From Escherichia coli (GTDB lineage Bacteria; Pseudomonadota; Gammaproteobacteria; Enterobacterales; Enterobacteriaceae), in the NCBI RefSeq assembly GCF_003790525.1, contig NZ_CP033635.1: 64,000 bases of DNA. One strand, 5' to 3'. The translations under genes were made by a program, and so were the position numbers. Below the pieces are notes generated by a model. That model ran no database searches. It was given only the letters and a program-made list of their open reading frames with translations, and had not been told where the DNA came from. The stretch's first letter is position 1. Each line of letters starts with the position of its first letter. Below, one piece after another: positions 13,215-30,428 of this stretch.

Positions 13215-13285
13215 TGTCGGGCCCTCGTGATGATCGTTTGTCTCATGATGGCAAAACGGGGCAGGGACAGACAAAGTGCGTTTGT

Positions 13286-13303: not shown

Positions 13304-13368
13304 ACACCGGGCATGGCAGGAGGCCTGTAAGGGGTGAGTAAACTGCCTGAATCACATGAGGGGGAGAA

Positions 13369-16175: not shown

Positions 16176-16202
16176 CGCGCTTCGCTTGTCTGCTGCTTCG
16201 CC

Positions 16203-16225
16203 GGGGCATAAAAAATTTATGCCCC
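16203..16225. terminator. 10-bp stem hairpin between convergent portal gene and cargo gene
   Basis: GGGGCATAAA-AAA-TTTATGCCCC read directly; no flanking U-tract, so may instead be a packaging-site (cos) element. Confidence 0.4.
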
Positions 16226-16241
16226 GACTCTCCAGCTCTGC

Positions 16242-16955: not shown

Positions 16956-17171
16956 ATCAAGCTTTTACGTCTTTTTTACGCTCAGCGTGAGAAATACAGC
17001 CATTCTGTTGTGTCGCTGCAACATCGTTCAGGGAATGCTATTTACCCCCTGAAACGCGGGCTGTTCCCCCGTCACCTGCGCGCAGAAAAAGGCCTTTTTT
17101 CGTGCACGCACGGATCCCCGACGGATCCAGACGCCACACGGGCCGGAAGGGCAAAAAGTCGTTCAAAAAAA

Positions 17172-17198
17172 TTGTGCAAATTTGTGCACTATTGTGCA
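17172..17198. repeat. three direct TTGTGCA repeats at exact 10-bp spacing
   Basis: attgtgcaaa / tttgtgcact / attgtgcatt read directly; immediately beside the terminator of the upstream operon. Confidence 0.6.
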
Positions 17199-17205
17199 TT
17201 GAAAT

Positions 17206-17228
17206 AAACGCCCTGGAGGAGGGCGTTT
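17206..17228 (-). terminator. rho-independent terminator after the five-gene small-protein operon
   Basis: AAACGCCCT-GGAGG-AGGGCGTTT 9-bp stem, followed on the minus strand by a U-rich run. Confidence 0.6.
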
Positions 17229-17235
17229 TGCTCAT

Positions 17236-17637
17236 CTATTTATAGCCTTGCCCCTTACTGGCCAGCGCCCTGATGGCAGGGCGTGCCAACACCATATTTT
17301 GGCAATGATGAATTGCCCGGCAAAATTCATCTCTACCCATTGGATGCTCAACTGGCAATGTAAAATACAGGTTCCATGCATCGCCTAAAAGTTGGGCTAT
17401 CTTTTGTTCTTCAGATGTCAGCAAGCGGTACTCCCCATCCTTGATGTAGTCACTTGTGCCATCGACCTGCTGTTCTGCAATGTGGAAAGCACCTATTGGT
17501 TTTGCTTCCAGCGATGCCAAAGCAATCCGTGCCAGTTTTTCCGCTTCTTCGGCTGGCAGTACAACGTTGCTACCAGGTCCGTATGTTTCGCGCCACTGCC
17601 TGATTGTCAGTAGTCGCTCTTTGGTTATAGTGGTCAT
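17236..17637 (-). CDS. hypothetical protein (133 aa)
   Basis: ORF with start overlapping the upstream stop; last gene of the operon following gene A; no family recognised. Confidence 0.5.
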   Translation of the reverse strand: MTTITKERLLTIRQWRETYGPGSNVVLPAEEAEKLARIALASLEAKPIGAFHIAEQQVDGTSDYIKDGEYRLLTSEEQKIAQLLGDAWNLYFTLPVEHPMGRDEFCRAIHHCQNMVLARPAIRALASKGQGYK

Positions 17638-17843
17638 TTGTTAATCCTCAAAACTTTATGCCCGGGCGCAAAAGCACGAGTTTTGTCTTTGCTTATTCGC
17701 CAGCCATCCTTACGCGCCTCTTTTGCACAGCCAGTCCATGACGTACCGATATATTCACCGAAGTCTGGCGTTTGATATTTACCATTTGTACACTGGCGAC
17801 AATCACAATAGAGATGCATGGTGTAACTTGCGGCAATAGCCAT
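17634..17843 (-). CDS. hypothetical small Cys-rich protein (69 aa), possible zinc ribbon
   Basis: Cys residues in a C-x-C-x2-C pattern plus a further Cys; translationally coupled to neighbours. Confidence 0.45.
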   Translation of the reverse strand: MAIAASYTMHLYCDCRQCTNGKYQTPDFGEYIGTSWTGCAKEARKDGWRISKDKTRAFAPGHKVLRINK

Positions 17844-17844
17844 A

Positions 17845-18174
17845 TCAGTCTCCTTTGATGCCAGTGTTTACAACCTGACAAGCCTCTTTGAGCACCCAGT
17901 CAACAGCGTCTTGCCATGCTCCGGTTTCGACTGGCGGATTCTCACGCTTTACCAGTTCATAGAAACGTACTGCTCTAACCAGTCCATCTGACGGTTTTGC
18001 CTGTAGTGCAGCCTGAGCTATGCGGTATACCTGGAGCATACAGGCGTCGTTGATATCCATTCCGAATGGAATATCTGATGACTGAGATTCCACATCTTCC
18101 AGCCTGGCAATTTCTTTACGTAAGAAGCCTTTCAGTTCCTGCTTCTGTTTCCTGTTCATATATTTTTCCTTCAA
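17845..18174 (-). CDS. hypothetical protein (109 aa)
   Basis: ORF in operon; start overlaps the upstream stop. Confidence 0.45.
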   Translation of the reverse strand: MKEKYMNRKQKQELKGFLRKEIARLEDVESQSSDIPFGMDINDACMLQVYRIAQAALQAKPSDGLVRAVRFYELVKRENPPVETGAWQDAVDWVLKEACQVVNTGIKGD

Positions 18175-18365
18175 AGTTCGGTTCGCTGACAGGGTTTCTC
18201 TTTACGGCAGACAATGACGCTTCCTTTGCTCGAGTCGGTGATTGTTACCGTGCCGTCATCACACTGGACAATGACAACGGTGTTGCTCTTTTTCGCTACG
18301 CAGTTCGGCGTGGCTGATTGTGCGAATGGCGCGAAAAACAGCAGAAAAAGTAATATTCTGCTCAC
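18171..18365 (-). CDS. small secreted Cys-containing protein (~64 aa), predicted GTG start
   Basis: GTG at 18363-18365 preceded by GGAGGA Shine-Dalgarno; N-terminal signal-peptide-like SRILLFLLFFAPFAQSA followed by a 4-Cys mature region; the longer ATG-initiated ORF lacks a ribosome-binding site. Confidence 0.45.
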   Translation of the reverse strand: MSRILLFLLFFAPFAQSATPNCVAKKSNTVVIVQCDDGTVTITDSSKGSVIVCRKEKPCQRTEL

Positions 18366-18793
18366 TGTTGTTTCCTCCCGTTCTGTGCTGGTCTGGCGAA
18401 TGAATTGCGTTGTGGTGAAAAGACCATTCGCGCCAGCGCGGCCTTGTGATTGACTGTGTTCAGTGTTCTGGCCAGTCCGCCGTTGTGCCTGCGTGTCCGC
18501 TCTTCGTGATATCTCTGCATGATTTTCCCGGCAGGCGTGCACGGCTCCGGTTCCTCCGGCGAACGGCGCGGACGAATGACGACAGTCCAGCTATGGCTCT
18601 CGCTGCCCGGCCGCCTGTTGAGTATGTCGGCGATGGTGGTCTCCGTGGTGCGATCGGGGCTGACTATCGTGATTTCCAGCTCGTCGCCCGGTTGTGGCCT
18701 TGTGGCAGGCCTGAACAGTGTCAGCACCGGCATACGCTGGCGCATGATGGCCTCAAACTGTGGGCGCTGCATGGTGCAGCAAAATCGCGTCAT
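18362..18793 (-). CDS. hypothetical protein (143 aa), Arg/Pro-rich
   Basis: ORF with start immediately after the gene A stop; GC-rich with alternative frames also open, so coding status is uncertain. Confidence 0.4.
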   Translation of the reverse strand: MTRFCCTMQRPQFEAIMRQRMPVLTLFRPATRPQPGDELEITIVSPDRTTETTIADILNRRPGSESHSWTVVIRPRRSPEEPEPCTPAGKIMQRYHEERTRRHNGGLARTLNTVNHKAALARMVFSPQRNSFARPAQNGRKQQ

Positions 18794-21300
18794 GCTCCCG
18801 CCTCCACTGGCTGCTCTGTGATGATGTGACGGGCTGACTCATCCCAGTACGCTGTTCCCCCGTTATCCAGACGCACACGGGCACCGTTACGCACGGAGAT
18901 GATGGCCGCGTCAGGCAACTGCACACCCAGCGCATCAAGTTCGCGGGCGATTTGCGTGTCCGTCGCGGTATCCGCAGGCACGACAATCCCCACCCTTACA
19001 GGGGTGTCAGATGCCGGTGTGGTGTCGTTTTGTCCGGTTTTTGCGCCCGACGGCTGATTTTTAATCTGATTACGCAGTTTTCTCCGATCGCCCCTGCTTA
19101 ACGTATTCAGCCAGCTTTCCAGGTTCTCTTCGGGAAGCGTCAGTCGTCCGGGGTCCTGCCTGTTTTCTGGTCCGTGATTGTCTGTTTTTTCATCCCGGGG
19201 ACAGTTATTGCCACGAGTCCAAGGGGCGACGGGGTCGCCCTGAAGGTCAAAACCCTCGCCCGTGCGGTTGTCTGGTATTGTTTCTTTTTTAACCAGTTTC
19301 CACTCGTCCGGATGGGTGCATATGGTGTACCGCTCTCCGAGCGACGGGGCGCAGATTCCGTAGATACGTTGAGGGAATTCACCGTAGTCGTTGGCTTCGT
19401 CTGCGGTTTCGTATGCGGTGCGGACCAGATACTGGTTGCGCGGAATGAGCACACCACCCTGTTTCATGATGTAGGTGGCAAAACATCCCACATCTGCGGC
19501 AGCCATAATGGCGTCAATATCGTCATGATCGAGGTGCTTCGGTGATGCCGGGTTGCGCTCCATCTGGCTTGCAAGGCGGCGGAGTTCACGCCATACCTGG
19601 CGGGGCGGAATGCCGAAAAACTGGAACTGACGGATGCGGTGAAGGCTTGCCCAGGCAATGGCGTTCTCCACGGTTTCCGCCATGGTTTTCCCGGATTCCT
19701 CATCAACGTAAGGTTTTCCGGTTTTCGGATCATTGTTGTGGAAAGCGCTGGCGTCCAGGTTCTTACCGATATAGGTTGCGATATAGCTTGCCGGTGTGCC
19801 TTTTTCCGGGTCTATCTTCTCGCATTTAAAGCGCGGTGAAATATCGTCCCCCAGTTCGTGGCGATCTGATTTAATTGCTGCTTCGCGCATAATTTCGATG
19901 ATGCGCTCTGCGTTCTCCGGGGAAGTGAATACCAGCATATGCCAGTGTGGCGTGCCGTCATGGTGTGGCTCAGCGGTTCGCACGCCGTACCAGCCCAGCC
20001 CCTCTTTTTTTATTTTTTTTCTTACGGCTGCGAAGAAGTCGTAAACCAGATAATCACTGGCATCTCGTACTGTGGCACCGTTGTATTTCGGGTTCAGGCT
20101 GCCGTTCTCGTTCACGCTGTGAAAGCGGGAAGGGGTGGTTACTGTGATGAAGAATGCGACGTCAGCCCGTAATTCGGCCACCATCTCCATCCCTCTGACG
20201 CAGACCATCATTTCATTGCGGCGGTTGCGTGGATTACCCAGGCCAGCCCAGTACACGTCCTCCAGACTCAGGCGCTCGCCGTCTTCGTTTTCAATATCCC
20301 AGCTTTTGAGAAAGTCACAGGTGCGCTGGCGCTTCTCGCGGAACTCCAGTAGTGACTCATGGCTGATATAGGGGGATTGTTTACGTGACACTCTGCCGGC
20401 GGCGCGCAGTAACTCCTCCCGCCAGAGATCGGCGACGTGGCGTAACTGGTTGTTCCACCAGGTCGCGCAGGTGATGCGCAGTACCGCACCCGGAACCCGT
20501 TCAGGGTCCGGCGGTGTGCGTCGGTTGTGCCTGATTTCGAGTTCCGGCCAGTATGGCGGGACCATGCCCAGAATTAAGGCTGTGCGTGCCACCTTCTGGT
20601 AGGCCAGCAGCCAGATAACCGGGCTGTCATTATCCTTGCCTGTCCGTTCAAGAACTTCATCACATATGCGTTCAAATTCTGCGGCGAATGCCTGGGCTGT
20701 CAGTGTGGCGATGCGCTGGATTTCGTCACGGGTGAGTTGCGGCAGTGTGAGCAGTTCTTCAAGGCGATGGCGCACGACGGTGGTTTTGAATGCCGGCGTT
20801 GCAAAGCGGTCGTTAACCCTTTCAATACGTTTCAGGCGCGCACGCAGTCCACGGCGAACGAAATTATCGGCCACGTATGCGCTGTTGTTTTTTACACCTT
20901 CACTGCGGGCACTTTGCTGTTTCCGGTTCAGTCGTGCCAGATCACGGATCAACACACTGGCAAGAAACGAGGGCAGGGTGCGAAGTTCGGCTATCGCCTC
21001 CGATACCGCCGTTGGCGGATTTTCGCGTCTGTGTCGTGCCAGCTTATCCAGCCTTATCTGCCGCTCTTCGTCCCGGTGAAGGTGTGAATTAATTTGCTTA
21101 CCTTTGTCCGTGGTTGTCAGGAAGGCCACGGTTTCTTCATCCAGCCGGGCCTCAGTGCGAATGTCTTCGGTGAGGTAGTCACGGATTGCCCGTTGTAATG
21201 CGGTTGGCTTCTGCGGTAATGCTCTGCCGAATGTCTCAGGATCAATAACCGGCAGCGGGGCGTTCCACGGGTACGCCAGGTGCGTGTGGTGATGGCTCAT
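18790..21300 (-). CDS. phage replication initiation endonuclease (P2 gpA-like, rolling-circle)
   Basis: 836-aa ORF; contains a GTPHWHMLVF HUH-type motif; position in the early operon as for P2 A. Confidence 0.8.
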   Translation of the reverse strand: MSHHHTHLAYPWNAPLPVIDPETFGRALPQKPTALQRAIRDYLTEDIRTEARLDEETVAFLTTTDKGKQINSHLHRDEERQIRLDKLARHRRENPPTAVSEAIAELRTLPSFLASVLIRDLARLNRKQQSARSEGVKNNSAYVADNFVRRGLRARLKRIERVNDRFATPAFKTTVVRHRLEELLTLPQLTRDEIQRIATLTAQAFAAEFERICDEVLERTGKDNDSPVIWLLAYQKVARTALILGMVPPYWPELEIRHNRRTPPDPERVPGAVLRITCATWWNNQLRHVADLWREELLRAAGRVSRKQSPYISHESLLEFREKRQRTCDFLKSWDIENEDGERLSLEDVYWAGLGNPRNRRNEMMVCVRGMEMVAELRADVAFFITVTTPSRFHSVNENGSLNPKYNGATVRDASDYLVYDFFAAVRKKIKKEGLGWYGVRTAEPHHDGTPHWHMLVFTSPENAERIIEIMREAAIKSDRHELGDDISPRFKCEKIDPEKGTPASYIATYIGKNLDASAFHNNDPKTGKPYVDEESGKTMAETVENAIAWASLHRIRQFQFFGIPPRQVWRELRRLASQMERNPASPKHLDHDDIDAIMAAADVGCFATYIMKQGGVLIPRNQYLVRTAYETADEANDYGEFPQRIYGICAPSLGERYTICTHPDEWKLVKKETIPDNRTGEGFDLQGDPVAPWTRGNNCPRDEKTDNHGPENRQDPGRLTLPEENLESWLNTLSRGDRRKLRNQIKNQPSGAKTGQNDTTPASDTPVRVGIVVPADTATDTQIARELDALGVQLPDAAIISVRNGARVRLDNGGTAYWDESARHIITEQPVEAGA

Positions 21301-21305
21301 TCCGC

Positions 21306-21719
21306 TTACTCCCCTGCTGTTGCCTTCTGAAATGCAGCCCGGTACAGCACAAGAAGGCGCTGGTATTCAGCGATAAAGTCTTCTGCTGTTTTAATCCCTT
21401 TCACGACCACGCTGTGGGTGGTCATTTCCAGAACGAGCACCATTTCTGACGATGACCAGCTGATAACGCTGCTGTCGCACCCGTTGATGTGGAACAGGCC
21501 CAGCTCCAGGCTGTGGTTCTGGTCTCTGACATCCACGCGGTAACGGTCGTCAACGGTGAAGGAAAAATCCCCGTATGTGGCAGCGCTGCGGGCTGCCTGT
21601 TTACAGGCGCGGCGGTAATAGTCGTGCAGGTCATTGAGACGGGAAGCGAGGCGTGGATCCACCGCCCACATCCAGTTAAAAAAATCCTGAATATCTGAAA
21701 GTCCCTTAACGCTCTTCAT
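21306..21719 (-). CDS. hypothetical protein (137 aa)
   Basis: ORF immediately upstream of gene A on the same strand. Confidence 0.5.
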   Translation of the reverse strand: MKSVKGLSDIQDFFNWMWAVDPRLASRLNDLHDYYRRACKQAARSAATYGDFSFTVDDRYRVDVRDQNHSLELGLFHINGCDSSVISWSSSEMVLVLEMTTHSVVVKGIKTAEDFIAEYQRLLVLYRAAFQKATAGE

Positions 21720-21787
21720 GAGAACCTCCGGAAACGGACGTGCGGAAGCCTCCCGCGTACGGGGGCGGGATGGCTCCGGGATGTTGA

Positions 21788-22012
21788 TTAGTGGTGGTGC
21801 TGGTTAATGAGGTCCTGCAGCTCGCGCAGGTCATCCACCAGGTAGCTGAATACAGCGGCGGAATACATGTTTGACAGTGCGTGGCTGCGCTCATGCAGCA
21901 TATTGATGTGCATGATATGCGCGACGCGGAATGCGCGGAAAAGTCTGCGGTTGATTTCAGTCTGGATGTGACGACGCGCAGCGTATGCGCGCTGTTGTTT
22001 GCGGTTTGCCAT
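21788..22012 (-). CDS. hypothetical small basic protein (74 aa) with C-terminal His run
   Basis: ORF downstream of the iteron-like non-coding region. Confidence 0.45.
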   Translation of the reverse strand: MANRKQQRAYAARRHIQTEINRRLFRAFRVAHIMHINMLHERSHALSNMYSAAVFSYLVDDLRELQDLINQHHH

Positions 22013-22332
22013 GGTGTGGCCTCTGTAGTTGCAAGTTTTGAAAACTCACCATCCAGAGGTTGCAATTCTGGGTGGCGAGACGTACAGGGTTGCAACCACC
22101 GGCAACTACAGAAACCGGCCCGACCGAAGTCGGCCCCATACGCCCCGCCATAATTCTGGCGCGAAAAAGACGTGGCGATACGGTACGCACAAAAAAACCG
22201 CTGGCGCGGTTGTGCGCTGTAGTTGTCAGCGGGGGTTGCAATCCCGGCACCCGTTTTATGAGGTGCAGCGGAAATGTAACCTGACTGATTGCGGCATGGC
22301 AAGCGGTTTTTTTGTGTGTGCATAGTGGTTAC
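22013..22332. repeat. non-coding region with iteron-like CTGTAGTTG / GGTTGCAA repeats
   Basis: GGTTGCAA-type motif at about 22027, 22059, 22089, 22235; CTGTAGTTG at about 22023 and 22218, with its reverse complement at about 22103; all read directly. Confidence 0.6.
22191..22211 (-). terminator. rho-independent terminator inside the iteron region
   Basis: Minus strand reads AACCGC-GCCA-GCGGTT followed by T7. Confidence 0.5.
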
Positions 22333-22971
22333 TCAGTCCGGTAGCAGTTCGCAAAGCACGGTGTCAGCGGCGGTATATCGTGCGTAAAGCCGGGCGAGGA
22401 CCCATCTTTTAAGGGATATCCCGGCCGTGTCCCGGATGTACTTTCTGATTTCGCTGAATGTCATCCCCTGTTCATCGCGCAGTTCAGTTACCAACTCCAC
22501 CAGGTGATCGCTGTATCTGGCTCTGTGGTGGAGTTCCCCGTATTTCCTGAACCGGTACCCTCTTTTTCTCAGGTTCAGTCCCACCGTGGATGTCGAGCGC
22601 CCCAGTTCATTCGCGAGTTCCCGGATGGTTTTTGTGTGGCGATTCCTGATGAGCGTGTTGAGTTCTTTTGTATTCAGGGGGGGTTGTTTGGTGTGGATAA
22701 CCCCCTGAGAGAGCAAAAGACGGATGCGGCTTCGTATTGCTGGCCCGGTTCTCTGAAAGTGTTTTGTCAGTTCTGGTACGGTGTGGGAGGGGTATAAACC
22801 GACCAGTAGAGCATCTTCCTGTTGTGTCCAGGCTCTGACATGCTTCGGTGGTACACCTGATACACCCATAGGTTTAAGTGCGGGCATAGTTGTTCTCCGT
22901 TGTTCTGTTTTGTGTCGGGGTAATGGTCCGGTTTTTTCGCCTTCAACCGGAAAAGAAGGGCGTGTTAGCAT
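22333..22971 (-). CDS. putative DNA-binding protein with repeated helix-turn-helix / Myb-SANT-like motifs; start uncertain
   Basis: WTQQEDALLVGLYPSHTVPELTKHFQRTGPAIRSRIRLL and two further HTH-like segments; several in-frame Met candidates. Confidence 0.5.
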   Translation of the reverse strand: MLTRPSFPVEGEKTGPLPRHKTEQRRTTMPALKPMGVSGVPPKHVRAWTQQEDALLVGLYPSHTVPELTKHFQRTGPAIRSRIRLLLSQGVIHTKQPPLNTKELNTLIRNRHTKTIRELANELGRSTSTVGLNLRKRGYRFRKYGELHHRARYSDHLVELVTELRDEQGMTFSEIRKYIRDTAGISLKRWVLARLYARYTAADTVLCELLPD

Positions 22972-23121
22972 TGATGAATCCGCCGTTCAGTGGATCTGGC
23001 GGACACTTTGTTCAACACGCCCGGGGGTAAAGATGTCTGGCTGCAAAAATTCCACGAGCCAGGTTACCCTGCACTCTGCGCTGATTAGGGGCAGAGCGAT
23101 GACGATGAGGGATAAAACACC

Positions 23122-23604
23122 ATGCAAAACAACCAACGTAAAAAATCGAGAGAACGGGATGAGGTCATGTTCCGTCTCTGGTACAGCTACTGGCTGGAGC
23201 GCATCGCGGCGGTATTCAATCGTCGCCTTGATGCGATCATCAACATTTTGATCCTTGCGGCGGGTGCGTTCATCGTAGCCGGCTGGCATTTCGGCTGGGT
23301 GCTTGGGGCAGTGGTGGTGGTTCTCGGAGCCTGTAATTTCATATGTCGTTTCGGGCAACGTGCGCAGGCGGCGAGTGAGCATGCCCATCGCTACAATGAG
23401 TTGATTACCAAAAGCGCCCTCCTCAGTACGGAAGCTCTGCTGGCACGCCTTCCAGAGCTTGAGATGCATGACTCTCCTGTCCTGGAATGCATGGAAAATG
23501 TGGCGTACAACAAAGCCTGTATGTCTCTGAATATCAGTCATCGTGAATCTCTCTCTTTCGCTGAAAAGATGATGGCTGCCATTACGATCGGTTTTTCCCG
23601 ATAA
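23122..23604 (+). CDS. predicted 2-TM inner-membrane protein (160 aa), opposite strand to the surrounding early operon
   Basis: GAGGG about 11 bp upstream of ATG; basic N-terminus, two adjacent hydrophobic helices (ILILAAGAFIVAGW and WVLGAVVVVLGACNFI), helical C-terminus; preferred over the overlapping His/Arg-rich antisense ORF. Confidence 0.55.
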   Translation: MQNNQRKKSRERDEVMFRLWYSYWLERIAAVFNRRLDAIINILILAAGAFIVAGWHFGWVLGAVVVVLGACNFICRFGQRAQAASEHAHRYNELITKSALLSTEALLARLPELEMHDSPVLECMENVAYNKACMSLNISHRESLSFAEKMMAAITIGFSR

Positions 23605-23643
23605 GTGCCCTGCGTGTGTCATCTGACGCTCGCCATGTTCCCG

Positions 23644-23892
23644 TCAGTCGTTCGGGTTTATGACGTAATCCACGACGTTTTCCACGCGGCGGCGTAATTC
23701 CCTGTGTATCTGGCCTGGTGTTGCTGGTTCGCCCGGTTGCCCCAGGCCTGCCACAAAATCGTCGATTTCACTCATAAGCAGGTTGCGCATTACGGCGATA
23801 TGGTGACGCGCCTCTTTGCCTGGTCTGCGTGCGTTGGTATCGTGTTTGCTGCTCATGTTCTTACCTCGCTTATTATCTCGAGTTCGCGCCAT
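23644..23892 (-). CDS. hypothetical small basic protein; start possibly at 23856
   Basis: ORF in early operon; an internal ATG overlaps the upstream stop. Confidence 0.4.
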   Translation of the reverse strand: MARTRDNKRGKNMSSKHDTNARRPGKEARHHIAVMRNLLMSEIDDFVAGLGQPGEPATPGQIHRELRRRVENVVDYVINPND

Positions 23893-24062
23893 GACTCTGT
23901 CAGGACGGTTATCTGTGACCCGTCCGTCAGGTGGACGTAAATCAGTTCGTCACCTGCCGGGCATCGGGTGGTGGTGGCGATGACACTGCTTTCCACTTCG
24001 TATTCCATCCCGGATGTATCGGTAAAAAGCGTTTTATTGCGTCTTCTCAGAATTGCAGTCAT
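23853..24062 (-). CDS. hypothetical protein (69 aa)
   Basis: ORF in early operon. Confidence 0.4.
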   Translation of the reverse strand: MTAILRRRNKTLFTDTSGMEYEVESSVIATTTRCPAGDELIYVHLTDGSQITVLTESWRELEIISEVRT

Positions 24063-24072
24063 GGTGTGGCCC

Positions 24073-24366
24073 TCAGTGTATTCGTGATGACGTGCCAGCC
24101 TCAGTGCTCTGAAGCTGACGTCTGAGGTTTTTCAGCTCCTGAGCCAGCCTGATGTTTTCTTCCCGGAACTCAGAAAGCGCCTGCACGGCAAGGGCGATGG
24201 CTATCGCTTCTGTCTGGTGCATCATGGCTAATAATATTTCTTCCGGATGTTCCATTAATTCACGGCTTAGTTTGTTTTTTTTCTTAATTAATTTGTTTGT
24301 GCCTTCGATTATTTTGTTGACCTGTTCACTGTTATCAATGATTCGGTTTTTTTTATTATTAAGCAT
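24073..24366 (-). CDS. hypothetical protein (97 aa), Lys-rich N-terminus, predicted coiled coil
   Basis: AT-rich ORF; heptad-like helical sequence. Confidence 0.45.
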   Translation of the reverse strand: MLNNKKNRIIDNSEQVNKIIEGTNKLIKKKNKLSRELMEHPEEILLAMMHQTEAIAIALAVQALSEFREENIRLAQELKNLRRQLQSTEAGTSSRIH

Positions 24367-24446
24367 TCCTGATTTCTCCTTTTTGAGCGGGTCAACCCCT
24401 CCGCGTGAGCGGATGTTTCTGGTTGTTTCTGGTGTTAAACGCCTGT

Positions 24447-24572
24447 TTATTTACGGCGCTTATCGCCAGTAAATAACGATTCAATGGTGTTAATGCTGTT
24501 AATTACCCGCATAATCCCCACAGCGCAAATAATGGCAAGGATAAGAATTAACCATGACATAAATACGCTCAT
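24447..24572 (-). CDS. unlisted small hydrophobic peptide (41 aa, MSVFMSWLILILAIICAVGIMRVINSINTIESLFTGDKRRK)
   Basis: My own reverse-complement translation; ATG overlaps the TGA of the upstream 80-aa gene in an ATGA arrangement; single predicted TM helix. Confidence 0.3.
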   Translation of the reverse strand: MSVFMSWLILILAIICAVGIMRVINSINTIESLFTGDKRRK

Positions 24573-24811
24573 GCTTCCTCCTGAATTACAAAGGGGGTTA
24601 TTACGTTTCCTTCAGACAGGTCTTTATTAATGGCCTGTAATTCCGTCAGAGCTTCATTATCTCCGGAACCAAAGGCGCAACAGGTCAGGCCCTTGATTGC
24701 TGTAGTCAGTGCTGCAAGTGAAACAGCGTCACCGTTAGTGCCACGGCTTGTAAGTCCGTAATGGTAATTCTGAAGCGCGTCGTTAATGAGTTCTTTATAG
24801 GCTCTTTTCAT
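24569..24811 (-). CDS. hypothetical protein (80 aa)
   Basis: ORF in early operon. Confidence 0.4.
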   Translation of the reverse strand: MKRAYKELINDALQNYHYGLTSRGTNGDAVSLAALTTAIKGLTCCAFGSGDNEALTELQAINKDLSEGNVITPFVIQEEA

Positions 24812-24849
24812 CTTGCTGCCTCTTCTGTCTTATTAAGACTCCTTTTGCC

Positions 24850-25158
24850 TTAGTAGTCGGTATGCTGAAAGCTGCGCCCCTCGATTAAGCGGTCGGCAGT
24901 TCGCAAGGCTTCGTGCAGTGTGAAATCCTGTCCGAACTGATTGTCGCCGCTGCTCAGTGCAAAAATGCGGTTTCCGGTAAACGGATTGCGGTGGCATCTG
25001 TGGATCACGAGTCCGGCCTGCTCAATCAGCCAGGTGTGTTGACCAGTCTGTTTTACAGCATGACCGCCCGGCGTTGCGTGTGTTTCGCGCAGGCTCCAGC
25101 GGTTATTGCTGCGTGGTGCACTGTTGCGGAAATGTGGCTGTGAATAATGTTTTCGCAT
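24850..25158 (-). CDS. hypothetical protein (102 aa)
   Basis: ORF preceded by a strong AGGAG Shine-Dalgarno; follows a 280-bp AT-rich gap. Confidence 0.5.
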   Translation of the reverse strand: MRKHYSQPHFRNSAPRSNNRWSLRETHATPGGHAVKQTGQHTWLIEQAGLVIHRCHRNPFTGNRIFALSSGDNQFGQDFTLHEALRTADRLIEGRSFQHTDY

Positions 25159-25440
25159 TATTTATCTCCTGCGCTTATTTTTCCTTCTATGCAATCTTTC
25201 ATGAATAACAAATACTCATTGGCTTCCTCTTCCGTTTTTAATATTCTCTCCAGATAGAAATTCTGAAAGTGTATATAGACTTATGCTCCTACCTTTGTTG
25301 TGGCTATTATGTCTTTTGCTTTAAAGTGCAATGCGTCACTACTTCTGGAGGTTAATCTTTGTCTTGGTTTCATGTTGTTGTCTTCCTTTACTTGAATACT
25401 ATTGCGGAAATATAGCTACGAATGATTACGTTGTGTGCCT

Positions 25441-25647
25441 CTACCTGATGAGCCAGATGACAAACGCTGTAAGTCCCGCGCCAACAACTATTGGAAAAAG
25501 CCCTTTAGAATAAGCTGCGACGTAATGAACGTTGAGGACAATAAAACGTTCTTTTTGTCCTGTTAGCTTGCCAAGCAGATAAATCACTACTACGCCTAAT
25601 TCCAGGAATATAATGTTCAAAACGGCATTGATGATATTGCTGGTCAT
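25441..25647 (-). CDS. small membrane protein (68 aa, two predicted TM helices)
   Basis: Highly hydrophobic AT-rich ORF directly after the first early gene; weak ribosome-binding site. Confidence 0.4.
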   Translation of the reverse strand: MTSNIINAVLNIIFLELGVVVIYLLGKLTGQKERFIVLNVHYVAAYSKGLFPIVVGAGLTAFVIWLIR

Positions 25648-25655
25648 TTTCGTGT

Positions 25656-26177
25656 TTAGCCGGGCTGGTTGTTTTTGAGTTGCTCCAGTTTTGAAACTCT
25701 GGGGGAGTAAACCTGCTTACCTTTAACGGTCTGGCAGTCCTCCTTGTTTGCCGGTGAAAACTTTCTTTTCTTGCGGTCGTACGTCCAGTAGCTTTTCCAG
25801 TTGTGCCACTCTGGCGGTTCGCACTCCAGTAGTTCGTCGGCTAGTTCGTCCCAGGCTTTGGCGTTAAACCACCATGTACCGTCTGACTTTTCATCTTCGG
25901 GATTTGAGCGCGTTTTGTGACCCGGCATCTGCCCGCGCTGAATGGCGGCGCGTAGCGCAGATTTTGTTACCCCCAGATAGGCAGCCCCTTTTTCCAGTGA
26001 CACAAGTCCTGCGACTGGGCCGTCCAGTCGTAGGGTTGCGCCCTTTTTGTAGGACGGTCTGGTTTTGGTTTCCAGGTGTTCGTTGTCGTTGGCAGCTTCA
26101 ATGAATTCATTGTCCGCGCCATCATCCTGAACCGGTTGAGCGCCAGATAACTCTTTGTCGGCAATAATCTCCCGCAT
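25656..26177 (-). CDS. first early-operon protein, Cox/Apl-like helix-turn-helix protein with acidic N-terminal and basic C-terminal extensions
   Basis: Divergent from the repressor gene; HTH-like LEKGAAYLGVTKSALRAAIQRG; at 173 aa it is larger than P2 Cox. Confidence 0.45.
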   Translation of the reverse strand: MREIIADKELSGAQPVQDDGADNEFIEAANDNEHLETKTRPSYKKGATLRLDGPVAGLVSLEKGAAYLGVTKSALRAAIQRGQMPGHKTRSNPEDEKSDGTWWFNAKAWDELADELLECEPPEWHNWKSYWTYDRKKRKFSPANKEDCQTVKGKQVYSPRVSKLEQLKNNQPG

Positions 26178-26213
26178 TTGTTATCCTCTTGCATTGGTGC
26201 GCTTGTTGCGCCT

Positions 26214-26259
26214 TTTGATGATTTTTGATGACTTGTAAAGATAATCGTACGGTTATCTT
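26214..26259. promoter_or_regulatory. immunity switch region: two direct TTTGATGA repeats 10 bp apart plus a 22-bp near-perfect palindrome
   Basis: Direct repeats at 26214-26221 and 26224-26231; palindrome AAGATAAT-CGTACG-GTTATCTT at 26238-26259; lies between divergent repressor and cox-like genes; P2 C is known to bind direct repeats. Confidence 0.5.
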
Positions 26260-26280
26260 TTGTAGGAGATTAATCCCCAA

Positions 26281-26622
26281 ATGAGTATCTTGTCAATAGA
26301 CTATGCGAAAAAGTTGCGTTTGATACGCAAGACGGAAGGGCTAACTCAAAAGCAATTTGCTGATATTACAGGGTTATCTCTGGCAACTGTCAGGAATTAT
26401 GAGTCAGGGCAAAAGATCGCCAGAGCAAAGATTGTTGAGGCCGTCCTTCAAGTGGATCGGTTTGAAAAATATATGTTCTGGCTAATCAAAGATAAGACGC
26501 TACCTGTTGCCGGTCAGATCGCCCCGGCTCTCTCTCTTGATGGCTCCACGCAGTCGGAGGACGATCAGGTTTCAACCCGCAATACCCAAAAATCACCCCA
26601 ATCAGGCCGCAATGCTGGCTGA
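26281..26622 (+). CDS. phage immunity repressor, P2 C-type (XRE-family HTH)
   Basis: HTH LTQKQFADITGLSLATVRNYESGQ; C-terminal GQIAPAL segment resembling P2 C as I recall it; upstream of and co-oriented with integrase. Confidence 0.75.
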   Translation: MSILSIDYAKKLRLIRKTEGLTQKQFADITGLSLATVRNYESGQKIARAKIVEAVLQVDRFEKYMFWLIKDKTLPVAGQIAPALSLDGSTQSEDDQVSTRNTQKSPQSGRNAG

Positions 26623-26682
26623 CGCTGTATATTGAACGGGCGGCGTTCAGTAAGCAGGGGTTAACAGGTTTATCCGTCGGAG

Positions 26683-27687
26683 GTGCTGATCATGTCGATT
26701 AAGCAACTCAAAGACGGACGTTATCAGGTTGATGTAAGGCCTCAGGGGGCGGGAGGAAGGCGGATTCGTAAGATTTTCACCCTGAAATCAAAGGCGCAGG
26801 AATTCGAAAGATACGTTCTTCAGAATTTCCACAATAACCCGTGGCAGGCAAGGCCCGCCGATCAACGGCGGTTATCAGAACTGATTGAGGTGTGGTGGAT
26901 GCTTGATGGTCGTAATCAGGCATATGGTGATACCTACAGAACCAGACTGGAGAAGGTGATACGTGAAATGGGGGACCCGCGCGCCAGCCAGATGACACGA
27001 AAATTCGTGATTGAGTATCGCTCGGATAAGTTGCAGGCGGGACTGATGCCGTCCAGTATCAATCGCGACCTGTGCGCCTTATCTGCGATGTTTTCGTTGT
27101 TAATTGACGCGGAGGTTTATCATAACGAAAACCCTGTGCGCGGAATACGTAAACTCAAGGTTCAGAATACAGAAATGGCCTTTCTTTCAGATGACGAGAT
27201 TGATCGCCTTCTGAAACGGCTTGAGGGTGATGCACGACGCATTGCCATTCTGTGCCTTTCGACCGGGGCCAGATGGAAAGAGGCGTCAACGCTTCGCGGG
27301 GAACACATCGTGGGTAACAGGGTGACGTTCTTTAACACAAAGAACGGGAAATCGCGCTCGGTTCCTGTAGCTGATTCCGTTGTGCCGTTAATTAAAACCC
27401 GCCGGACCGGCCTGTTATATCAGGTTGATTATCTCAGTTTCAGGGAGATCCTTCAGGAGGTGAAGCCCGACTTACCCAAAGGGCAGGCCACGCATGTCAT
27501 GCGGCACACGTTCGCCACGCATTTCATGATGAACGGCGGGAACATCGTCACGTTGCAGAGGATCCTGGGTCACGCCACGATTCAGCAAACGATGACGTAT
27601 GCGCATTTTTCACCGGACTTTTTACAGGATGCGATCAGCTTTAATCCGCTGGCTGAAAGTGTCCATAAACTGTCCATCGACCAGTAA
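26683..27687 (+). CDS. int: tyrosine integrase (P2 Int-like)
   Basis: 334-aa ORF; C-terminal HxxRHT and Y motifs (ATHVMRHTFATH ... MTYAHF); terminal position in the prophage. Confidence 0.85.
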   Translation: MLIMSIKQLKDGRYQVDVRPQGAGGRRIRKIFTLKSKAQEFERYVLQNFHNNPWQARPADQRRLSELIEVWWMLDGRNQAYGDTYRTRLEKVIREMGDPRASQMTRKFVIEYRSDKLQAGLMPSSINRDLCALSAMFSLLIDAEVYHNENPVRGIRKLKVQNTEMAFLSDDEIDRLLKRLEGDARRIAILCLSTGARWKEASTLRGEHIVGNRVTFFNTKNGKSRSVPVADSVVPLIKTRRTGLLYQVDYLSFREILQEVKPDLPKGQATHVMRHTFATHFMMNGGNIVTLQRILGHATIQQTMTYAHFSPDFLQDAISFNPLAESVHKLSIDQ

Positions 27688-27799
27688 TTATTTGTGATAA
27701 TTTGCTCCCCTTGTTTTTGTTTACTTATTGAAAAATAAGGAAATCAGCAAGAGGAGTAAGTACCGTTAAATCTCCTGCGGGCGCTTTTTTTGTCTCCCT
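27688..27799. other. putative prophage-chromosome junction (att region); core not identified
   Basis: Non-coding stretch between the int stop and the dmsA FNR site; the other prophage end is outside the window. Confidence 0.3.
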
Positions 27800-27813
27800 T
27801 TGATACCGAACAA
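27800..27813 (+). promoter_or_regulatory. FNR binding site of the dmsA promoter
   Basis: TTGAT-ACCG-AACAA read directly, matching the FNR consensus TTGAT-N4-ATCAA; dmsABC is FNR-activated. Confidence 0.5.
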
Positions 27814-27983
27814 TAATTACTCCTCACTTACACGTAATACTACTTTCGAGTGAAAATCTACCTATCTCTTTGATTTTCAAATTATTCGATATATACAAGC
27901 CTATATAGCGACCTGCTATAGAAATAATTACACAATACGGTTTGTTACTGGAATCAATCGTGAGCAAGCTTGAGTGAGCCATT

Positions 27984-30428
27984 ATGAAAACGAAAATCCC
28001 TGATGCGGTATTGGCTGCTGAGGTGAGTCGCCGTGGTTTGGTAAAAACGACAGCGATCGGCGGCCTGGCAATGGCCAGCAGCGCATTAACATTACCTTTT
28101 AGTCGGATTGCGCACGCTGTTGATAGTGCCCTTCCGGCAAAGTCAGACGAAAAGGTAATCTGGAGCGCCTGTACAGTTAACTGTGGTAGCCGCTGCCCGC
28201 TACGTATGCACGTTGTGGACGGTGAAATTAAATATGTTGAAACGGATAATACCGGCGATGACAACTATGACGGCCTGCACCAGGTGCGCGCCTGTCTGCG
28301 TGGGCGTTCCATGCGTCGCCGTGTCTACAATCCGGACCGCCTGAAATATCCGATGAAACGAGTCGGGGCGCGCGGTGAAGGCAAATTCGAGCGCATTAGC
28401 TGGGAAGAAGCCTACGACATCATCGCGACCAATATGCAGCGCCTGATCAAAGAGTACGGCAACGAGTCTATCTATCTGAACTATGGTACCGGTACGCTGG
28501 GCGGCACCATGACCCGCTCCTGGCCGCCGGGAAATACCCTGGTCGCTCGCCTGATGAACTGCTGCGGCGGTTATCTGAACCATTACGGTGACTACTCTTC
28601 CGCGCAAATTGCGGAAGGTTTGAACTATACCTACGGCGGCTGGGCAGATGGTAACAGCCCGTCGGATATCGAAAACAGTAAACTGGTAGTGCTGTTTGGT
28701 AATAACCCTGGCGAAACGCGAATGAGTGGCGGTGGGGTGACTTACTATCTTGAACAGGCGCGCCAGAAATCTAATGCTCGCATGATCATCATCGATCCGC
28801 GCTATACCGACACCGGTGCCGGGCGCGAAGATGAGTGGATCCCTATTCGTCCGGGAACAGATGCCGCACTGGTTAACGGTCTGGCGTATGTCATGATCAC
28901 CGAAAACCTGGTGGATCAGGCATTCCTCGATAAATATTGCGTTGGCTACGACGAGAAAACACTGCCAGCCAGTGCGCCGAAAAATGGTCACTATAAAGCT
29001 TATATTCTGGGTGAAGGGCCAGATGGCGTGGCTAAAACGCCGGAATGGGCCTCGCAAATCACTGGTGTTCCGGCAGACAAAATCATCAAATTGGCTCGTG
29101 AAATCGGTAGTACCAAACCGGCGTTTATCAGCCAGGGATGGGGCCCGCAGCGTCACGCTAACGGTGAAATCGCAACCCGTGCTATCTCGATGCTGGCGAT
29201 TCTGACCGGTAACGTTGGTATTAACGGAGGCAACAGCGGCGCGCGTGAAGGTTCATACAGCTTACCGTTTGTCCGTATGCCGACCCTCGAAAACCCGATC
29301 CAGACCAGCATTTCGATGTTTATGTGGACCGATGCCATTGAACGTGGCCCGGAAATGACAGCGCTGCGTGATGGTGTGCGCGGGAAAGATAAGCTGGATG
29401 TGCCGATCAAAATGATCTGGAACTATGCCGGTAACTGCCTGATTAATCAGCATTCTGAAATCAACCGTACCCATGAAATCCTTCAGGATGATAAGAAGTG
29501 CGAGCTGATTGTGGTTATCGACTGCCACATGACCTCATCGGCGAAATATGCTGACATCCTGCTGCCTGACTGCACCGCTTCAGAACAGATGGACTTTGCA
29601 CTGGATGCATCCTGCGGGAATATGTCTTACGTGATTTTCAACGATCAGGTGATTAAACCGCGCTTTGAATGTAAGACCATCTATGAAATGACCAGCGAAC
29701 TGGCAAAACGTCTTGGCGTTGAGCAACAATTTACTGAGGGCCGTACCCAGGAAGAGTGGATGCGGCATCTGTATGCCCAGTCGCGGGAAGCGATTCCTGA
29801 ACTGCCAACGTTTGAAGAGTTCCGTAAGCAGGGGATCTTTAAAAAGCGCGACCCACAAGGGCATCACGTTGCTTATAAAGCTTTCCGTGAAGATCCGCAG
29901 GCAAATCCACTGACCACGCCATCGGGGAAAATTGAGATTTATTCGCAGGCGCTGGCTGACATTGCCGCGACCTGGGAATTGCCAGAAGGTGATGTGATCG
30001 ATCCACTGCCGATCTACACGCCGGGCTTTGAAAGTTATCAGGATCCGCTGAACAAACAGTATCCGCTGCAGCTTACGGGTTTCCACTATAAATCTCGCGT
30101 TCACTCAACTTACGGCAACGTTGATGTGCTGAAAGCAGCTTGCCGTCAGGAAATGTGGATCAACCCGCTTGATGCGCAAAAACGCGGTATCAACAACGGC
30201 GATAAAGTCAGGATCTTTAACGATCGTGGTGAGGTTCATATTGAGGCGAAAGTGACGCCACGAATGATGCCGGGTGTGGTCGCACTGGGTGAAGGTGCCT
30301 GGTATGACCCGGATACAAAACGTGTCGATAAGGGCGGTTGTATCAACGTACTGACCACTCAACGTCCGTCTCCTCTCGCTAAGGGGAATCCGTCACATAC
30401 AAACCTTGTTCAGGTTGAAAAGGTGTAA
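27984..30428 (+). CDS. dmsA: anaerobic DMSO reductase catalytic subunit A
   Basis: 814 aa; Tat-type signal (SRRGLVKTTAIGGLAMA), molybdopterin oxidoreductase; conserved dmsABC order. Confidence 0.95.
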   Translation: MKTKIPDAVLAAEVSRRGLVKTTAIGGLAMASSALTLPFSRIAHAVDSALPAKSDEKVIWSACTVNCGSRCPLRMHVVDGEIKYVETDNTGDDNYDGLHQVRACLRGRSMRRRVYNPDRLKYPMKRVGARGEGKFERISWEEAYDIIATNMQRLIKEYGNESIYLNYGTGTLGGTMTRSWPPGNTLVARLMNCCGGYLNHYGDYSSAQIAEGLNYTYGGWADGNSPSDIENSKLVVLFGNNPGETRMSGGGVTYYLEQARQKSNARMIIIDPRYTDTGAGREDEWIPIRPGTDAALVNGLAYVMITENLVDQAFLDKYCVGYDEKTLPASAPKNGHYKAYILGEGPDGVAKTPEWASQITGVPADKIIKLAREIGSTKPAFISQGWGPQRHANGEIATRAISMLAILTGNVGINGGNSGAREGSYSLPFVRMPTLENPIQTSISMFMWTDAIERGPEMTALRDGVRGKDKLDVPIKMIWNYAGNCLINQHSEINRTHEILQDDKKCELIVVIDCHMTSSAKYADILLPDCTASEQMDFALDASCGNMSYVIFNDQVIKPRFECKTIYEMTSELAKRLGVEQQFTEGRTQEEWMRHLYAQSREAIPELPTFEEFRKQGIFKKRDPQGHHVAYKAFREDPQANPLTTPSGKIEIYSQALADIAATWELPEGDVIDPLPIYTPGFESYQDPLNKQYPLQLTGFHYKSRVHSTYGNVDVLKAACRQEMWINPLDAQKRGINNGDKVRIFNDRGEVHIEAKVTPRMMPGVVALGEGAWYDPDTKRVDKGGCINVLTTQRPSPLAKGNPSHTNLVQVEKV

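What the first reader, a model, noticed from the sequence alone, without database searches (positions are those of the whole stretch)
27688..27983. Prophage integrated immediately upstream of the dmsA promoter, leaving the FNR site intact
The integrase stop is only ~110 bp from the dmsA FNR box TTGAT-ACCG-AACAA. The att core must therefore lie within 27688-27799, and prophage-derived transcription or DNA structure could influence anaerobic dmsABC expression. No tRNA gene is evident at the junction.
Basis: partly seen in the sequence, partly recalled or inferred. Interest (0 to 1): 0.3.

Follow-up and report, generated by a model that had tools for sequence, protein, structure and literature searches.

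The report
P2-like prophage junction beside dmsA promoter
This stretch is one end of an ordinary P2-family prophage inserted at an already published site, the transcription terminator between serS and dmsA, and the dmsA oxygen-sensing (FNR) promoter next to it is unchanged.

Summary
The integrase stop codon (27685-27687) lies 112 bp before the dmsA FNR box (27800-27813). I compared an empty K-12 site, the window, and the far junction of a 99.9%-identical lysogen. This puts the crossover in a 15-bp core, CCTGCGGGCGCTTTT (27774-27788). The core is the distal half of the intrinsic terminator after serS. There is no tRNA. From 27774 to the dmsA ATG the DNA matches K-12 except for two SNPs.

The site is not new. 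It is the attachment site of PhiECO5 in UTI89 (published 2011, same boundaries) and of Phi1 in ST131 strain EC958. About 350 of 5426 complete E. coli genomes carry a prophage of this integrase family, nearly all at this site.

- **A putative antisense sRNA.** The same hairpin is the terminator of STnc130 (Rfam RF02084, minus strand 27893-27759).
- **A broken hairpin in this phage variant.** Its core flank (AAATCTCC instead of AAAGCGCC) destroys the hairpin at the dmsA-side junction. No intrinsic terminator then separates the phage C-int operon from dmsA P1. The common UTI89/ST131 variant rebuilds the terminator.

Any effect on dmsABC expression is untested. Interest is low.

The parts
1..27773 (.). 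The part of the P2-family prophage that lies in the window. It runs from the tape-measure C-terminus, through tail, baseplate, lysis, head, terminase, portal and replication genes, to cox, C and int. The ogr-side end lies outside the window.
   Evidence: Window 1-29880 is 99.89% identical to NZ_CM148325, where these genes are annotated. The late genes resemble P88/Xuanwuvirus-type Peduoviridae at about 77-80% nucleotide identity.
26281..26622 (+). C-type immunity repressor (HTH). It is the first gene of the lysogenic C-int operon, which reads toward dmsA.
   Evidence: RefSeq annotation. PHROG 147 transcriptional regulator, E = 3e-28. The gene order matches P2 C-int.
26692..27687 (+). P2-type tyrosine integrase, 331 aa.
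   Evidence: PHROG 1 integrase, E = 1.8e-70. E = 4.2e-95 to the P2 integrase structure 5c6k, with the GARW, HxxRH, LGH and TYAH motifs visible in the alignment. 91% amino-acid identity to the UTI89 PhiECO5 integrase.
27660..27677 (-). Two Int arm-type repeats, TGTCCAT at 27660-27666 and 27671-27677, 11 bp apart, inside the 3' end of int. They are the reverse complement of the P2-group consensus tgTGGaCa.
   Evidence: Sequence and motif scan (background is 0.14 hits per 250 bp). The consensus is from PMC3448106. P2 itself has its P' arm Int sites inside the int 3' end.
27688..27773 (.). Phage DNA of the int-side att arm (the P' arm in P2 nomenclature). It occupies the position of the Cox-binding region of P2 attP.
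   Evidence: It has no counterpart in the empty K-12 site. It is conserved at 81-100% in 350 lysogens. The P2 attP annotation places Cox binding between the core and the int stop.
27700..27761 (+). Conserved imperfect palindrome or stem-loop within the int-side arm. Its function is unresolved: either oppositely oriented Cox-type sites or a 3' hairpin of the int mRNA.
   Evidence: It forms the long stem of the MFE fold of 27688-27800 (whole 113-nt stretch -27.9 kcal/mol, z = -2.9). Across 8 variants, 85.5% of cells are paired and 3 pairs show changes on both sides. This evidence is weak.
27774..27788 (.). att core, CCTGCGGGCGCTTTT. This is the only sequence shared by the phage and the host site, and strand exchange occurs here. 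It is the loop plus distal arm and first four T of the serS terminator.
   Evidence: Three-way comparison of the empty site, the serS-side junction and the dmsA-side junction. The same core is used by the UTI89, ST131 and other variants.
27759..27893 (-). Match to the putative sRNA STnc130 (Rfam RF02084), antisense to the dmsA promoter. Its terminator is the same hairpin, and its last 15 nt (27773-27759) are phage DNA here.
   Evidence: 126.9 bits against a gathering score of 55. The K-12 empty site scores 140.1 and the UTI89 lysogen 139.3. Four non-standard pairs appear in the terminator stem, and the hairpin is lost on folding.
27789..27983 (+). Native dmsA control region and leader. It holds the rest of the T tract (to 27791), the FNR box at 27800-27813, an inferred -10 near 27835-27840, and an inferred P1 start near 27848.
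   Evidence: Identical to K-12 except at 27891 and 27912. The FNR site is at -41.5 of dmsABC according to PMC3688515. The +1 and -10 positions are inferred from that figure and were not measured.
27984..30428 (+). dmsA, the DMSO reductase catalytic subunit.
   Evidence: ORF list and RefSeq annotation in matching genomes.

Best explanation
Positions 27688-27983 hold the integrase-proximal attachment junction of a roughly 37-kb P2-family prophage, followed by the untouched dmsA promoter and leader. The phage's P2-type tyrosine integrase recombined a phage attP with a chromosomal site. Both share the 15-bp core CCTGCGGGCGCTTTT (27774-27788). That core is the loop and distal arm of the rho-independent terminator between serS and dmsA. 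The hairpin is bidirectional and also terminates the putative antisense sRNA STnc130.

Left of the core is phage arm DNA. It carries Int arm-type repeats inside the int 3' end and an 86-bp region at the position of the P2 Cox-binding region. Right of the core is native DNA, so the class II FNR site and everything downstream are as in a non-lysogen.

The boundary, the core, the integrase family and the identity of the host DNA are shown. The orientation of strand exchange, the roles of the arm elements and the P1 start coordinate are inferred.
For: - **Boundary and core.** The empty site (K-12), the serS-side junction (NZ_CM148325) and the dmsA-side junction (window) share exactly CCTGCGGGCGCTTTT. 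The prophage between the two copies is 37,295 bp.
- **Proxy genome.** The window is 99.89% identical to that lysogen over 29,880 bp.
- **Gene content.** A full P2-like gene set runs from ogr to int.
- **Integrase.** E = 4.2e-95 to the P2 integrase structure 5c6k and 91% identical to the UTI89 PhiECO5 integrase.
- **Published site.** The published PhiECO5 coordinates, 911187-948481 (PMC3448106), fall inside the two core copies flanking serS and dmsA in UTI89.
- **ST131.** The EC958 junction at 988450-988555 adjoins Phi1, whose tail region is reported at 955.8-961.1 kb (PMC4134206).
- **Frequency.** 350 of 5426 complete genomes carry this arm. 344 have int joined to dmsA.
- **Arm repeats.** They match the P2-group consensus tgTGGaCa and sit where P2 has its own.
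- **No tRNA.**
- **Host DNA.** Two SNPs relative to K-12.
Against: - The ogr-side junction of this particular genome lies outside the window. The core was therefore defined with a 99.9%-identical proxy genome.
- No free-phage attP sequence was found in the viral contig or phage collections, so attP is reconstructed and not observed.
- The dmsA P1 start is inferred from the published -41.5 spacing. The primary paper (Bearson 2002) could not be read.
Confidence: 0.93

Rival explanations
1. The junction is not neutral. In this phage variant the terminator hairpin is destroyed at the dmsA-side junction. Transcription of the lysogenic C-int operon, which is constitutive in a lysogen, would then read through into the dmsA promoter and leader. 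That could give FNR-independent dmsABC mRNA or occlude P1. In the other direction, antisense STnc130 transcripts would run on into int.
For: - In P2 the Pc promoter drives the lysogenic operon containing the repressor and the integrase (PMC3936717). The same C-int order, pointing at dmsA, is present here.
- The window junction reads AAATCTCC-TGCG-GGCGC, and the hairpin is lost: -6.2 kcal/mol against -16.3 for the native site.
- On the minus strand no hairpin forms either: -7.1 against -14.1.
- No terminator-like site lies between int and dmsA, whereas the UTI89 variant has one at the same place.
- The STnc130 score drops from 140 to 127 bits, with four non-standard pairs in the stem.
Against: - There are no expression data.
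- The strength of Pc in this phage is unknown.
- Rho-dependent termination could act in the 296-nt untranslated stretch.
- The conserved stem-loop at 27700-27761 may itself stop or destabilise the transcript.
- Host DNA is native from 27774, which is -74 if the start is placed at 27848, so the sequence at and next to the FNR site is unchanged.
- The terminator scan also missed the genuine K-12 terminator, so its negative result alone is weak.
- STnc130 is only a putative sRNA described in Salmonella.
Confidence: 0.15
2. The conserved imperfect palindrome at 27700-27761 is a DNA-level protein-binding region. It would hold Cox-type recombination-directionality sites in two orientations, as in P2 attP. 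It would not be an RNA structure.
For: - In P2 the Cox-protected region lies exactly between the core and the int stop.
- The P2 cox-boxes at attP face in two directions (PMC3936717).
- The region is conserved in all variants, including those at secondary sites.
Against: - The Cox protein here is 173 aa and belongs to a different PHROG from the small P2 Cox, so its recognition sequence is unknown.
- No significant motif is shared with the cox-C promoter region. The shared 9-mer was matched or exceeded in 104 of 1000 shuffles.
- Several stem positions vary as G-U or U-G wobble pairs, which fits an RNA better than a DNA palindrome.
Confidence: 0.45
3. The integrase is not at the true prophage terminus and the att core lies elsewhere.
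For: None found.
Against: Phage-specific DNA stops at 27773, and the next 217 bp are K-12 sequence. The same boundary appears in independent lysogens carrying diverged phages.
Confidence: 0.02

Closest known systems
Prophage PhiECO5 of E. coli UTI89 (Nilsson & Haggard-Ljungquist 2011, PMC3448106) and Phi1 of ST131 strain EC958 (Forde et al. 2014, PMC4134206)
   Same: The chromosomal site is the same (serS terminator / dmsA upstream) and so is the orientation, with int next to dmsA. The integrase is 91% identical in amino acids, and the arm repeats and int-side arm layout match.
   Different: - The UTI89/ST131 phage shares a 20-bp core (AAAGCGCCTGCGGGCGCTTT) and rebuilds a full terminator before dmsA. 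The window phage shares only 15 bp and breaks the hairpin.
- The late genes are only partly alignable, at about 77% nucleotide identity.
- The window-type arm is rare: 25 of 350 lysogens.
Bacteriophage P2 site-specific recombination module (Int, Cox, IHF, attP)
   Same: - A heterobivalent tyrosine integrase homologous to P2 Int.
- int is the last gene of the C-int lysogenic operon.
- Arm repeats of the tgTGGaCa type lie inside the int 3' end.
- About 80 bp separate the int stop from the core.
- The target is intergenic and not a tRNA.
   Different: The core sequence and chromosomal site differ (P2 uses locI). The Cox-family protein is nearly twice as long and belongs to another PHROG. IHF and Cox sites could not be identified here.
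186 / Fels-2 / HP1-type P2-like phages that integrate into tRNA or tmRNA genes
   Same: The virion gene set is P2-like, and integration uses a tyrosine integrase at a short core.
   Different: There is no tRNA or tmRNA at either junction. The arm repeats are of the P2 type, not the 186 type.
STnc130 (Rfam RF02084), a putative enterobacterial sRNA next to dmsA
   Same: The full-length match lies on the strand opposite to dmsA and ends at the shared terminator hairpin.
   Different: In this lysogen the 3' arm of the terminator and the U tract are replaced by phage DNA. The RNA is only putative (Sittka 2009, as cited in PMC3632133). Part of its conservation may simply reflect the dmsA promoter it overlaps.

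Membership tests
P2-type (Peduoviridae) integrase/att module | Tyrosine recombinase homologous to P2 Int, with the catalytic motifs | tested here: met
   E = 4.2e-95 to the P2 Int structure 5c6k over residues 47-327. GARW, HVMRH, LGH and TYAH are present in the alignment. PHROG 1 integrase.
P2-type (Peduoviridae) integrase/att module | Direct arm-type repeats of consensus tgTGGaCa on both sides of the core | tested here: met
   On the int side, TGTCCAT occurs twice, at 27660 and 27671. On the ogr side, in the proxy lysogen, TGTCCAGA, TGTCCATC and AGTCCACA lie 60-98 bp from the core. The consensus is from PMC3448106. The ogr side was seen only in the proxy genome.
P2-type (Peduoviridae) integrase/att module | int is the distal gene of the C-int lysogenic operon, with a divergent cox, and is adjacent to att | tested here: met
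   The order is cox (-) 25656-26177, C (+) 26281-26622, int (+) 26692-27687, then the core at 27774. P2 has the same layout.
P2-type (Peduoviridae) integrase/att module | Identical core at both prophage junctions and in the empty site | tested here: met
   A 15-bp exact repeat. The left junction comes from a genome 99.89% identical to the window.
P2-type (Peduoviridae) integrase/att module | Integration and excision activity dependent on Int, IHF and Cox | not testable with these tools
   This needs an experiment. No free attP was found in the phage or viral collections.
PhiECO5 / Phi1 group of serS-dmsA prophages | Integration at the serS terminator with int next to dmsA | tested here: met
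PhiECO5 / Phi1 group of serS-dmsA prophages | The same attP core, AAAGCGCCTGCGGGCGCTTT, which restores the terminator at the dmsA side | tested here: not met
   The window phage has AAATCTCCTGCGGGCGCTTTT. Only 15 bp are shared with the host, and the hairpin is lost.
PhiECO5 / Phi1 group of serS-dmsA prophages | Collinear, closely related phage genome | tested here: inconclusive
   The int region is 91% identical to UTI89 in nucleotides, but the late genes are about 77% identical and only partly alignable. The phage is a mosaic relative.
tRNA/tmRNA-targeting prophage integration | A tRNA or tmRNA gene overlapping the att core | tested here: not met
   ARAGORN finds none in the window and none at the other junction of the proxy.
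Rfam RF02084 STnc130 | Score above the family gathering threshold | tested here: met
   126.9 bits against 55, covering the full model 1-135.
Rfam RF02084 STnc130 | Intact terminator stem-loop of the family consensus | tested here: not met
   Two of the eight stem pairs (four positions flagged) are non-standard, and no hairpin appears in the fold. The stem is intact in K-12 and in UTI89.
Rfam RF02084 STnc130 | Expressed as a discrete small RNA in E. coli | not testable with these tools
   It is listed only as a putative sRNA in Salmonella (PMC3632133).
Class II FNR-activated promoter (dmsA P1) | FNR box TTGAT-N4-AACAA identical to the characterised K-12 site | tested here: met
   27800-27813 is identical to K-12. 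dmsABC is listed with its FNR site at -41.5 (PMC3688515).
Class II FNR-activated promoter (dmsA P1) | Normal anaerobic activation in the lysogen | not testable with these tools
   This needs expression measurements.

The most novel reading that the evidence does not exclude
The rare attP allele carried by this prophage (AAATCTCC flank) removes the bidirectional serS/STnc130 terminator hairpin from the dmsA-side junction. The constitutively transcribed C-int lysogenic operon would then be transcriptionally fused to the dmsA promoter region. Int bound at the core (about -74 to -60 of P1) would sit where the RNA polymerase alpha C-terminal domain would be expected to bind (my placement, from general knowledge of class II promoters, not tested). 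This would give prophage-allele-dependent changes in dmsABC or STnc130 expression that the common UTI89/ST131 allele avoids by rebuilding the terminator.
Probability: 0.12. Interest if true: 0.4.

Novelty: already known. Interest (0 to 1): 0.14.

Why it matters
It matters little beyond correct annotation. The result documents that the serS-dmsA terminator is a recurrent P2-like attachment site, occupied in about 6% of complete E. coli genomes, including ST131 and UTI89. The dmsA FNR promoter is not altered by the insertion.

The one point that could repay an experiment is the natural pair of att alleles. One rebuilds the terminator in front of dmsA and the other destroys it. Comparing them would be a clean test of whether lysogenic-operon read-through or loss of the STnc130 terminator affects a neighbouring host promoter.

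Tried and rejected
- **tRNA or tmRNA target.** None was found at either junction.
- **Direct observation of attP.** Exact searches of IMG/VR with the reconstructed attP of both alleles gave either nothing or only integrated prophages with a serS flank. A BLAST of a reconstructed attP against the phage collection hit only prophage-derived records that include dmsA. attP therefore remains a reconstruction.
- **Literature searches.** Searches for serS/dmsA/prophage, dmsA/integration site and dmsA/P2-like returned nothing relevant. The site was recognised only through the coordinates in Table 1 of PMC3448106.
- **Bearson et al. 2002 (dmsA promoter mapping).** This paper is not held. The P1 start is therefore inferred from the -41.5 value in PMC3688515.
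- **IHF consensus and P2 cox-box consensus in the int-side arm.** No match to either.
- **A motif shared between the int-side arm and the cox-C promoter region.** One 9-mer was found. It overlaps the cox ribosome-binding site and is not significant.
- **The simple terminator scan.** It reports nothing between int and dmsA, but it also misses the real K-12 terminator because the long stem uses up the T tract. The loss of the hairpin rests on the folds, not on the scan.
- **A new junction promoter reading into dmsA.** The only promoter-like match (27790-27817) is host sequence and is also present in the empty site.

Full report
**What is in the interval.** The integrase ORF ends with TAA at 27685-27687. 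The sequence TTGATACCGAACAA occupies 27800-27813, and the dmsA ATG is at 27984. The interval holds no ORF of 60 aa or more on the plus strand. ARAGORN finds no tRNA or tmRNA anywhere in the 64-kb window.

**The element to the left is a complete P2-family prophage.** A megablast of 26600-28400 against 5426 complete E. coli genomes finds the int-dmsA junction in 344 genomes, the best at 99.9% identity. In that genome (NZ_CM148325, locus L001) the window's first 29,880 bases align at 99.89% with a single gap. RefSeq annotation there shows an uninterrupted P2-type gene set: ogr, D, sheath, tube, tape measure, baseplate, tail fibre, lysis, head, terminase, portal, replication endonuclease, Cox-family protein, HTH repressor and integrase. 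The set lies between serS and dmsA. The late genes resemble P88/Xuanwuvirus-like Peduoviridae at 77-80% nucleotide identity.

**The integrase is of the P2 type.**
- It is a PHROG 1 integrase.
- It matches the solved P2 integrase 5c6k at E = 4.2e-95.
- The catalytic motifs GARW, HxxRH, LGH and TYAH are visible in that alignment.

**Mapping the core.** In K-12 MG1655 the serS stop and the dmsA ATG are 238 bp apart. The spacer contains the hairpin AAAAAGCGCC-TGCG-GGCGCTTTTTTT. I aligned three sequences: the empty site, the serS-side junction of L001 and the dmsA-side junction of the window. They share exactly CCTGCGGGCGCTTTT and nothing else. In the window this is 27774-27788. The two copies in L001 are 37,295 bp apart.

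The core is the loop, the distal arm and the first four T of the serS intrinsic terminator. Everything from 27774 to 27990 is host DNA and differs from K-12 only at 27891 and 27912. His refutation scenario, that the integrase is not terminal, is excluded.

**Anatomy of the junction compared with P2.** The annotated P2 genome has this order: ogr, terminator, Int P arm, IHF site, core, Cox-protected region, int stop, and Int P' arm sites inside the int 3' end. The window has the same layout on its int side.
- Two TGTCCAT repeats lie 11 bp apart at 27660-27677, inside int. They are the reverse complement of the P2-group arm consensus tgTGGaCa (PMC3448106; scan).
- An 86-bp phage segment (27688-27773) follows, where P2 binds Cox.
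- The core comes next.

In the proxy lysogen the other arm carries three more repeats of the same motif, 60-98 bp from the core. I could not find IHF-consensus or P2 cox-box matches. That is unsurprising, because the Cox-family protein here is 173 aa and belongs to a different PHROG.

**The site is already known.** Table 1 of Nilsson and Haggard-Ljungquist (2011, PMC3448106) lists prophage PhiECO5 of UTI89 at 911187-948481. In UTI89, serS ends at 911155 and dmsA starts at 948688. Both published end-points fall inside the two copies of the core. In EC958 the same junction lies at 988450-988555, next to prophage Phi1, whose tail-fibre region is reported at 955.8-961.1 kb (PMC4134206).

A search with the 108-bp int-side arm finds it in 350 of 5426 genomes:
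- 25 genomes at 99% identity or more (the window type);
- 1 at 95-99%;
- 9 at 90-95%;
- 314 at 80-90% (mostly the ST131/UTI89 type);
- 1 at 60-80%.

The window integrase is 91% identical in amino acids to that of PhiECO5. The same paper notes that P2-type integrases tend to integrate between genes, whereas 186-type integrases use tRNA genes. The absence of a tRNA is therefore expected.

Rfam gives a full-length match to RF02084 (STnc130) on the minus strand at 27893-27759. The score is 126.9 bits against a gathering score of 55. The family's consensus structure ends in the very hairpin that terminates serS on the other strand, so the terminator is bidirectional. The K-12 empty site scores 140.1 and the UTI89 lysogen 139.3.

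STnc130 is listed only as a putative sRNA next to dmsA in Salmonella (Sittka et al. 2009, as cited in PMC3632133). Part of its conservation may simply be that of the dmsA promoter it overlaps. I treat it as a candidate, not an established RNA.

| Feature | UTI89 / ST131 / C325 type | Window type (also strains 48, STEC2018-607, DETEC-S792) |
|---|---|---|
| Phage flank left of the core | AAAGCGCC | AAATCTCC or AAACCTCC |
| Identity shared with the host site | 20 bp | 15 bp |
| Hairpin at the dmsA-side junction | Rebuilt, with seven T | Broken |
| Terminator scan between int and dmsA | Detected | None |

The fold energies agree with this.

| Context | Native site (K-12) | Window | UTI89 |
|---|---|---|---|
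| Plus strand, dmsA-side junction | -16.3 kcal/mol | -6.2 kcal/mol | not folded |
| Minus strand, STnc130 orientation | -14.1 kcal/mol | no hairpin (-7.1) | -15.0 kcal/mol |

The scan's negative result in the window is weak on its own, because the scan also misses the real K-12 terminator for a technical reason. At the serS-side junction the hairpin survives in both alleles, with a shortened T tract. For the window type it folds at -15.6 kcal/mol; the UTI89-type junction was read but not folded.

**Likely consequences.** The following is shown. The FNR box, the inferred -10 and the whole leader are native. Host sequence begins at 27774. This corresponds to about -74 if the start is placed at 27848, using the published -41.5 spacing for dmsABC (PMC3688515). 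No new promoter-like site is created at the junction. The default expectation is therefore normal FNR control.

The following is inferred. In P2, Pc drives a lysogenic operon containing both the repressor and the integrase (PMC3936717). The same C-int operon points at dmsA here. In the window-type allele nothing resembling an intrinsic terminator separates the two. Some read-through into dmsA, and antisense read-through of STnc130 into int, is possible. I give this a low probability of mattering (about 0.12-0.15). Pc strength is unknown, Rho could act on the 296-nt untranslated stretch, and a conserved stem-loop sits in between.

**The conserved stem-loop or palindrome at 27700-27761.** In the MFE fold of 27688-27800 it forms the long stem; the whole 113-nt stretch folds at -27.9 kcal/mol (z = -2.9). 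Across eight variants, 85.5% of cells are paired. Three pairs change on both sides, and several vary as G-U wobbles. With eight related sequences this is suggestive only. The element occupies the position of the P2 Cox region, where cox-boxes face both ways. It may therefore be a protein-binding array rather than an RNA element. No motif is significantly shared with the cox-C promoter region. This point is unresolved.

**Verdict.** The feature is an ordinary, previously described P2-like attachment site. The only mildly new points are that the core lies in a bidirectional terminator shared with a putative antisense sRNA, and that this phage carries the minority att allele that destroys the terminator instead of restoring it. 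Interest is low.

Noticed in passing
window 22068-22155 (-) and 22191-22266 (-): Rfam matches to C4 antisense RNA (RF01695, 80.1 bits) and isrK (RF01394, 60.1 bits) inside the prophage early region. They lie next to genes annotated as 'derepression protein' and 'DNA-binding protein'. This looks like a P1/P7-type c4-ant immunity cassette carried by a P2-like phage. The UTI89 prophage has the same pair.
   Followed up: partly
L001 35650-39388 (NZ_CM148325; outside the window, between ogr and the serS-side core): About 3.7 kb of modular direct repeats lies in the ogr-side arm of the proxy prophage. It contains at least two Hok/Gef-family toxin modules and repeated GC-rich terminator-like hairpins. 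UTI89 has only about 0.6 kb with one hok/gef gene at this position.
   Followed up: partly
L012 (NZ_CM143727, next to selD) and L010 (NZ_AP042483, next to rraA): Related prophages with the same int-side arm sit at secondary sites. One is inside topB, at a site reading CCTGCTGGCGCTTTT in K-12 (14 of 15 matches to the core), which leaves a truncated toprim pseudogene. The other is immediately downstream of rraA. The topB junction carries the phage base at the mismatch. Crossover to its right, within GGCGCTTTT, is one explanation.
   Followed up: partly
window 27700-27761: A conserved imperfect palindrome or stem-loop lies between the int stop and the att core, with a few compensatory and wobble changes among eight phage variants. 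It could be a Cox-type binding array or an int mRNA 3' hairpin.
   Followed up: partly
window 3181-3530 and 3871-4220: A roughly 351-bp direct repeat at about 95% identity, offset by 690 bp, lies inside the tail-fibre gene (2520-4754, minus strand). It appears as self-matches in the window-versus-L001 BLAST.
   Followed up: no
window 27891 and 27912: These are the only two differences from K-12 in the dmsA control region. They fall in and just after the TATATAcaagccTATATA element of the leader. From memory, this corresponds to the ModE-binding region of dmsA. Position 27912 is A in K-12, T in UTI89 and C in the window.
   Followed up: no
L009 (NZ_CP124819, strain C325), dmsA-side junction: This lysogen has a G-to-A change in the loop of the core (CCTACGGGCGC) at the dmsA-side junction.
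   Followed up: no
L001 29658-31853 versus window 1-1338: In the proxy genome the tape-measure gene is annotated as a pseudogene lacking its C-terminus. In the window the corresponding C-terminal reading frame (1-1338) is open. The two sequences differ by a single gap over 29.9 kb, so one of them may carry a frameshift or a sequencing error.
   Followed up: no
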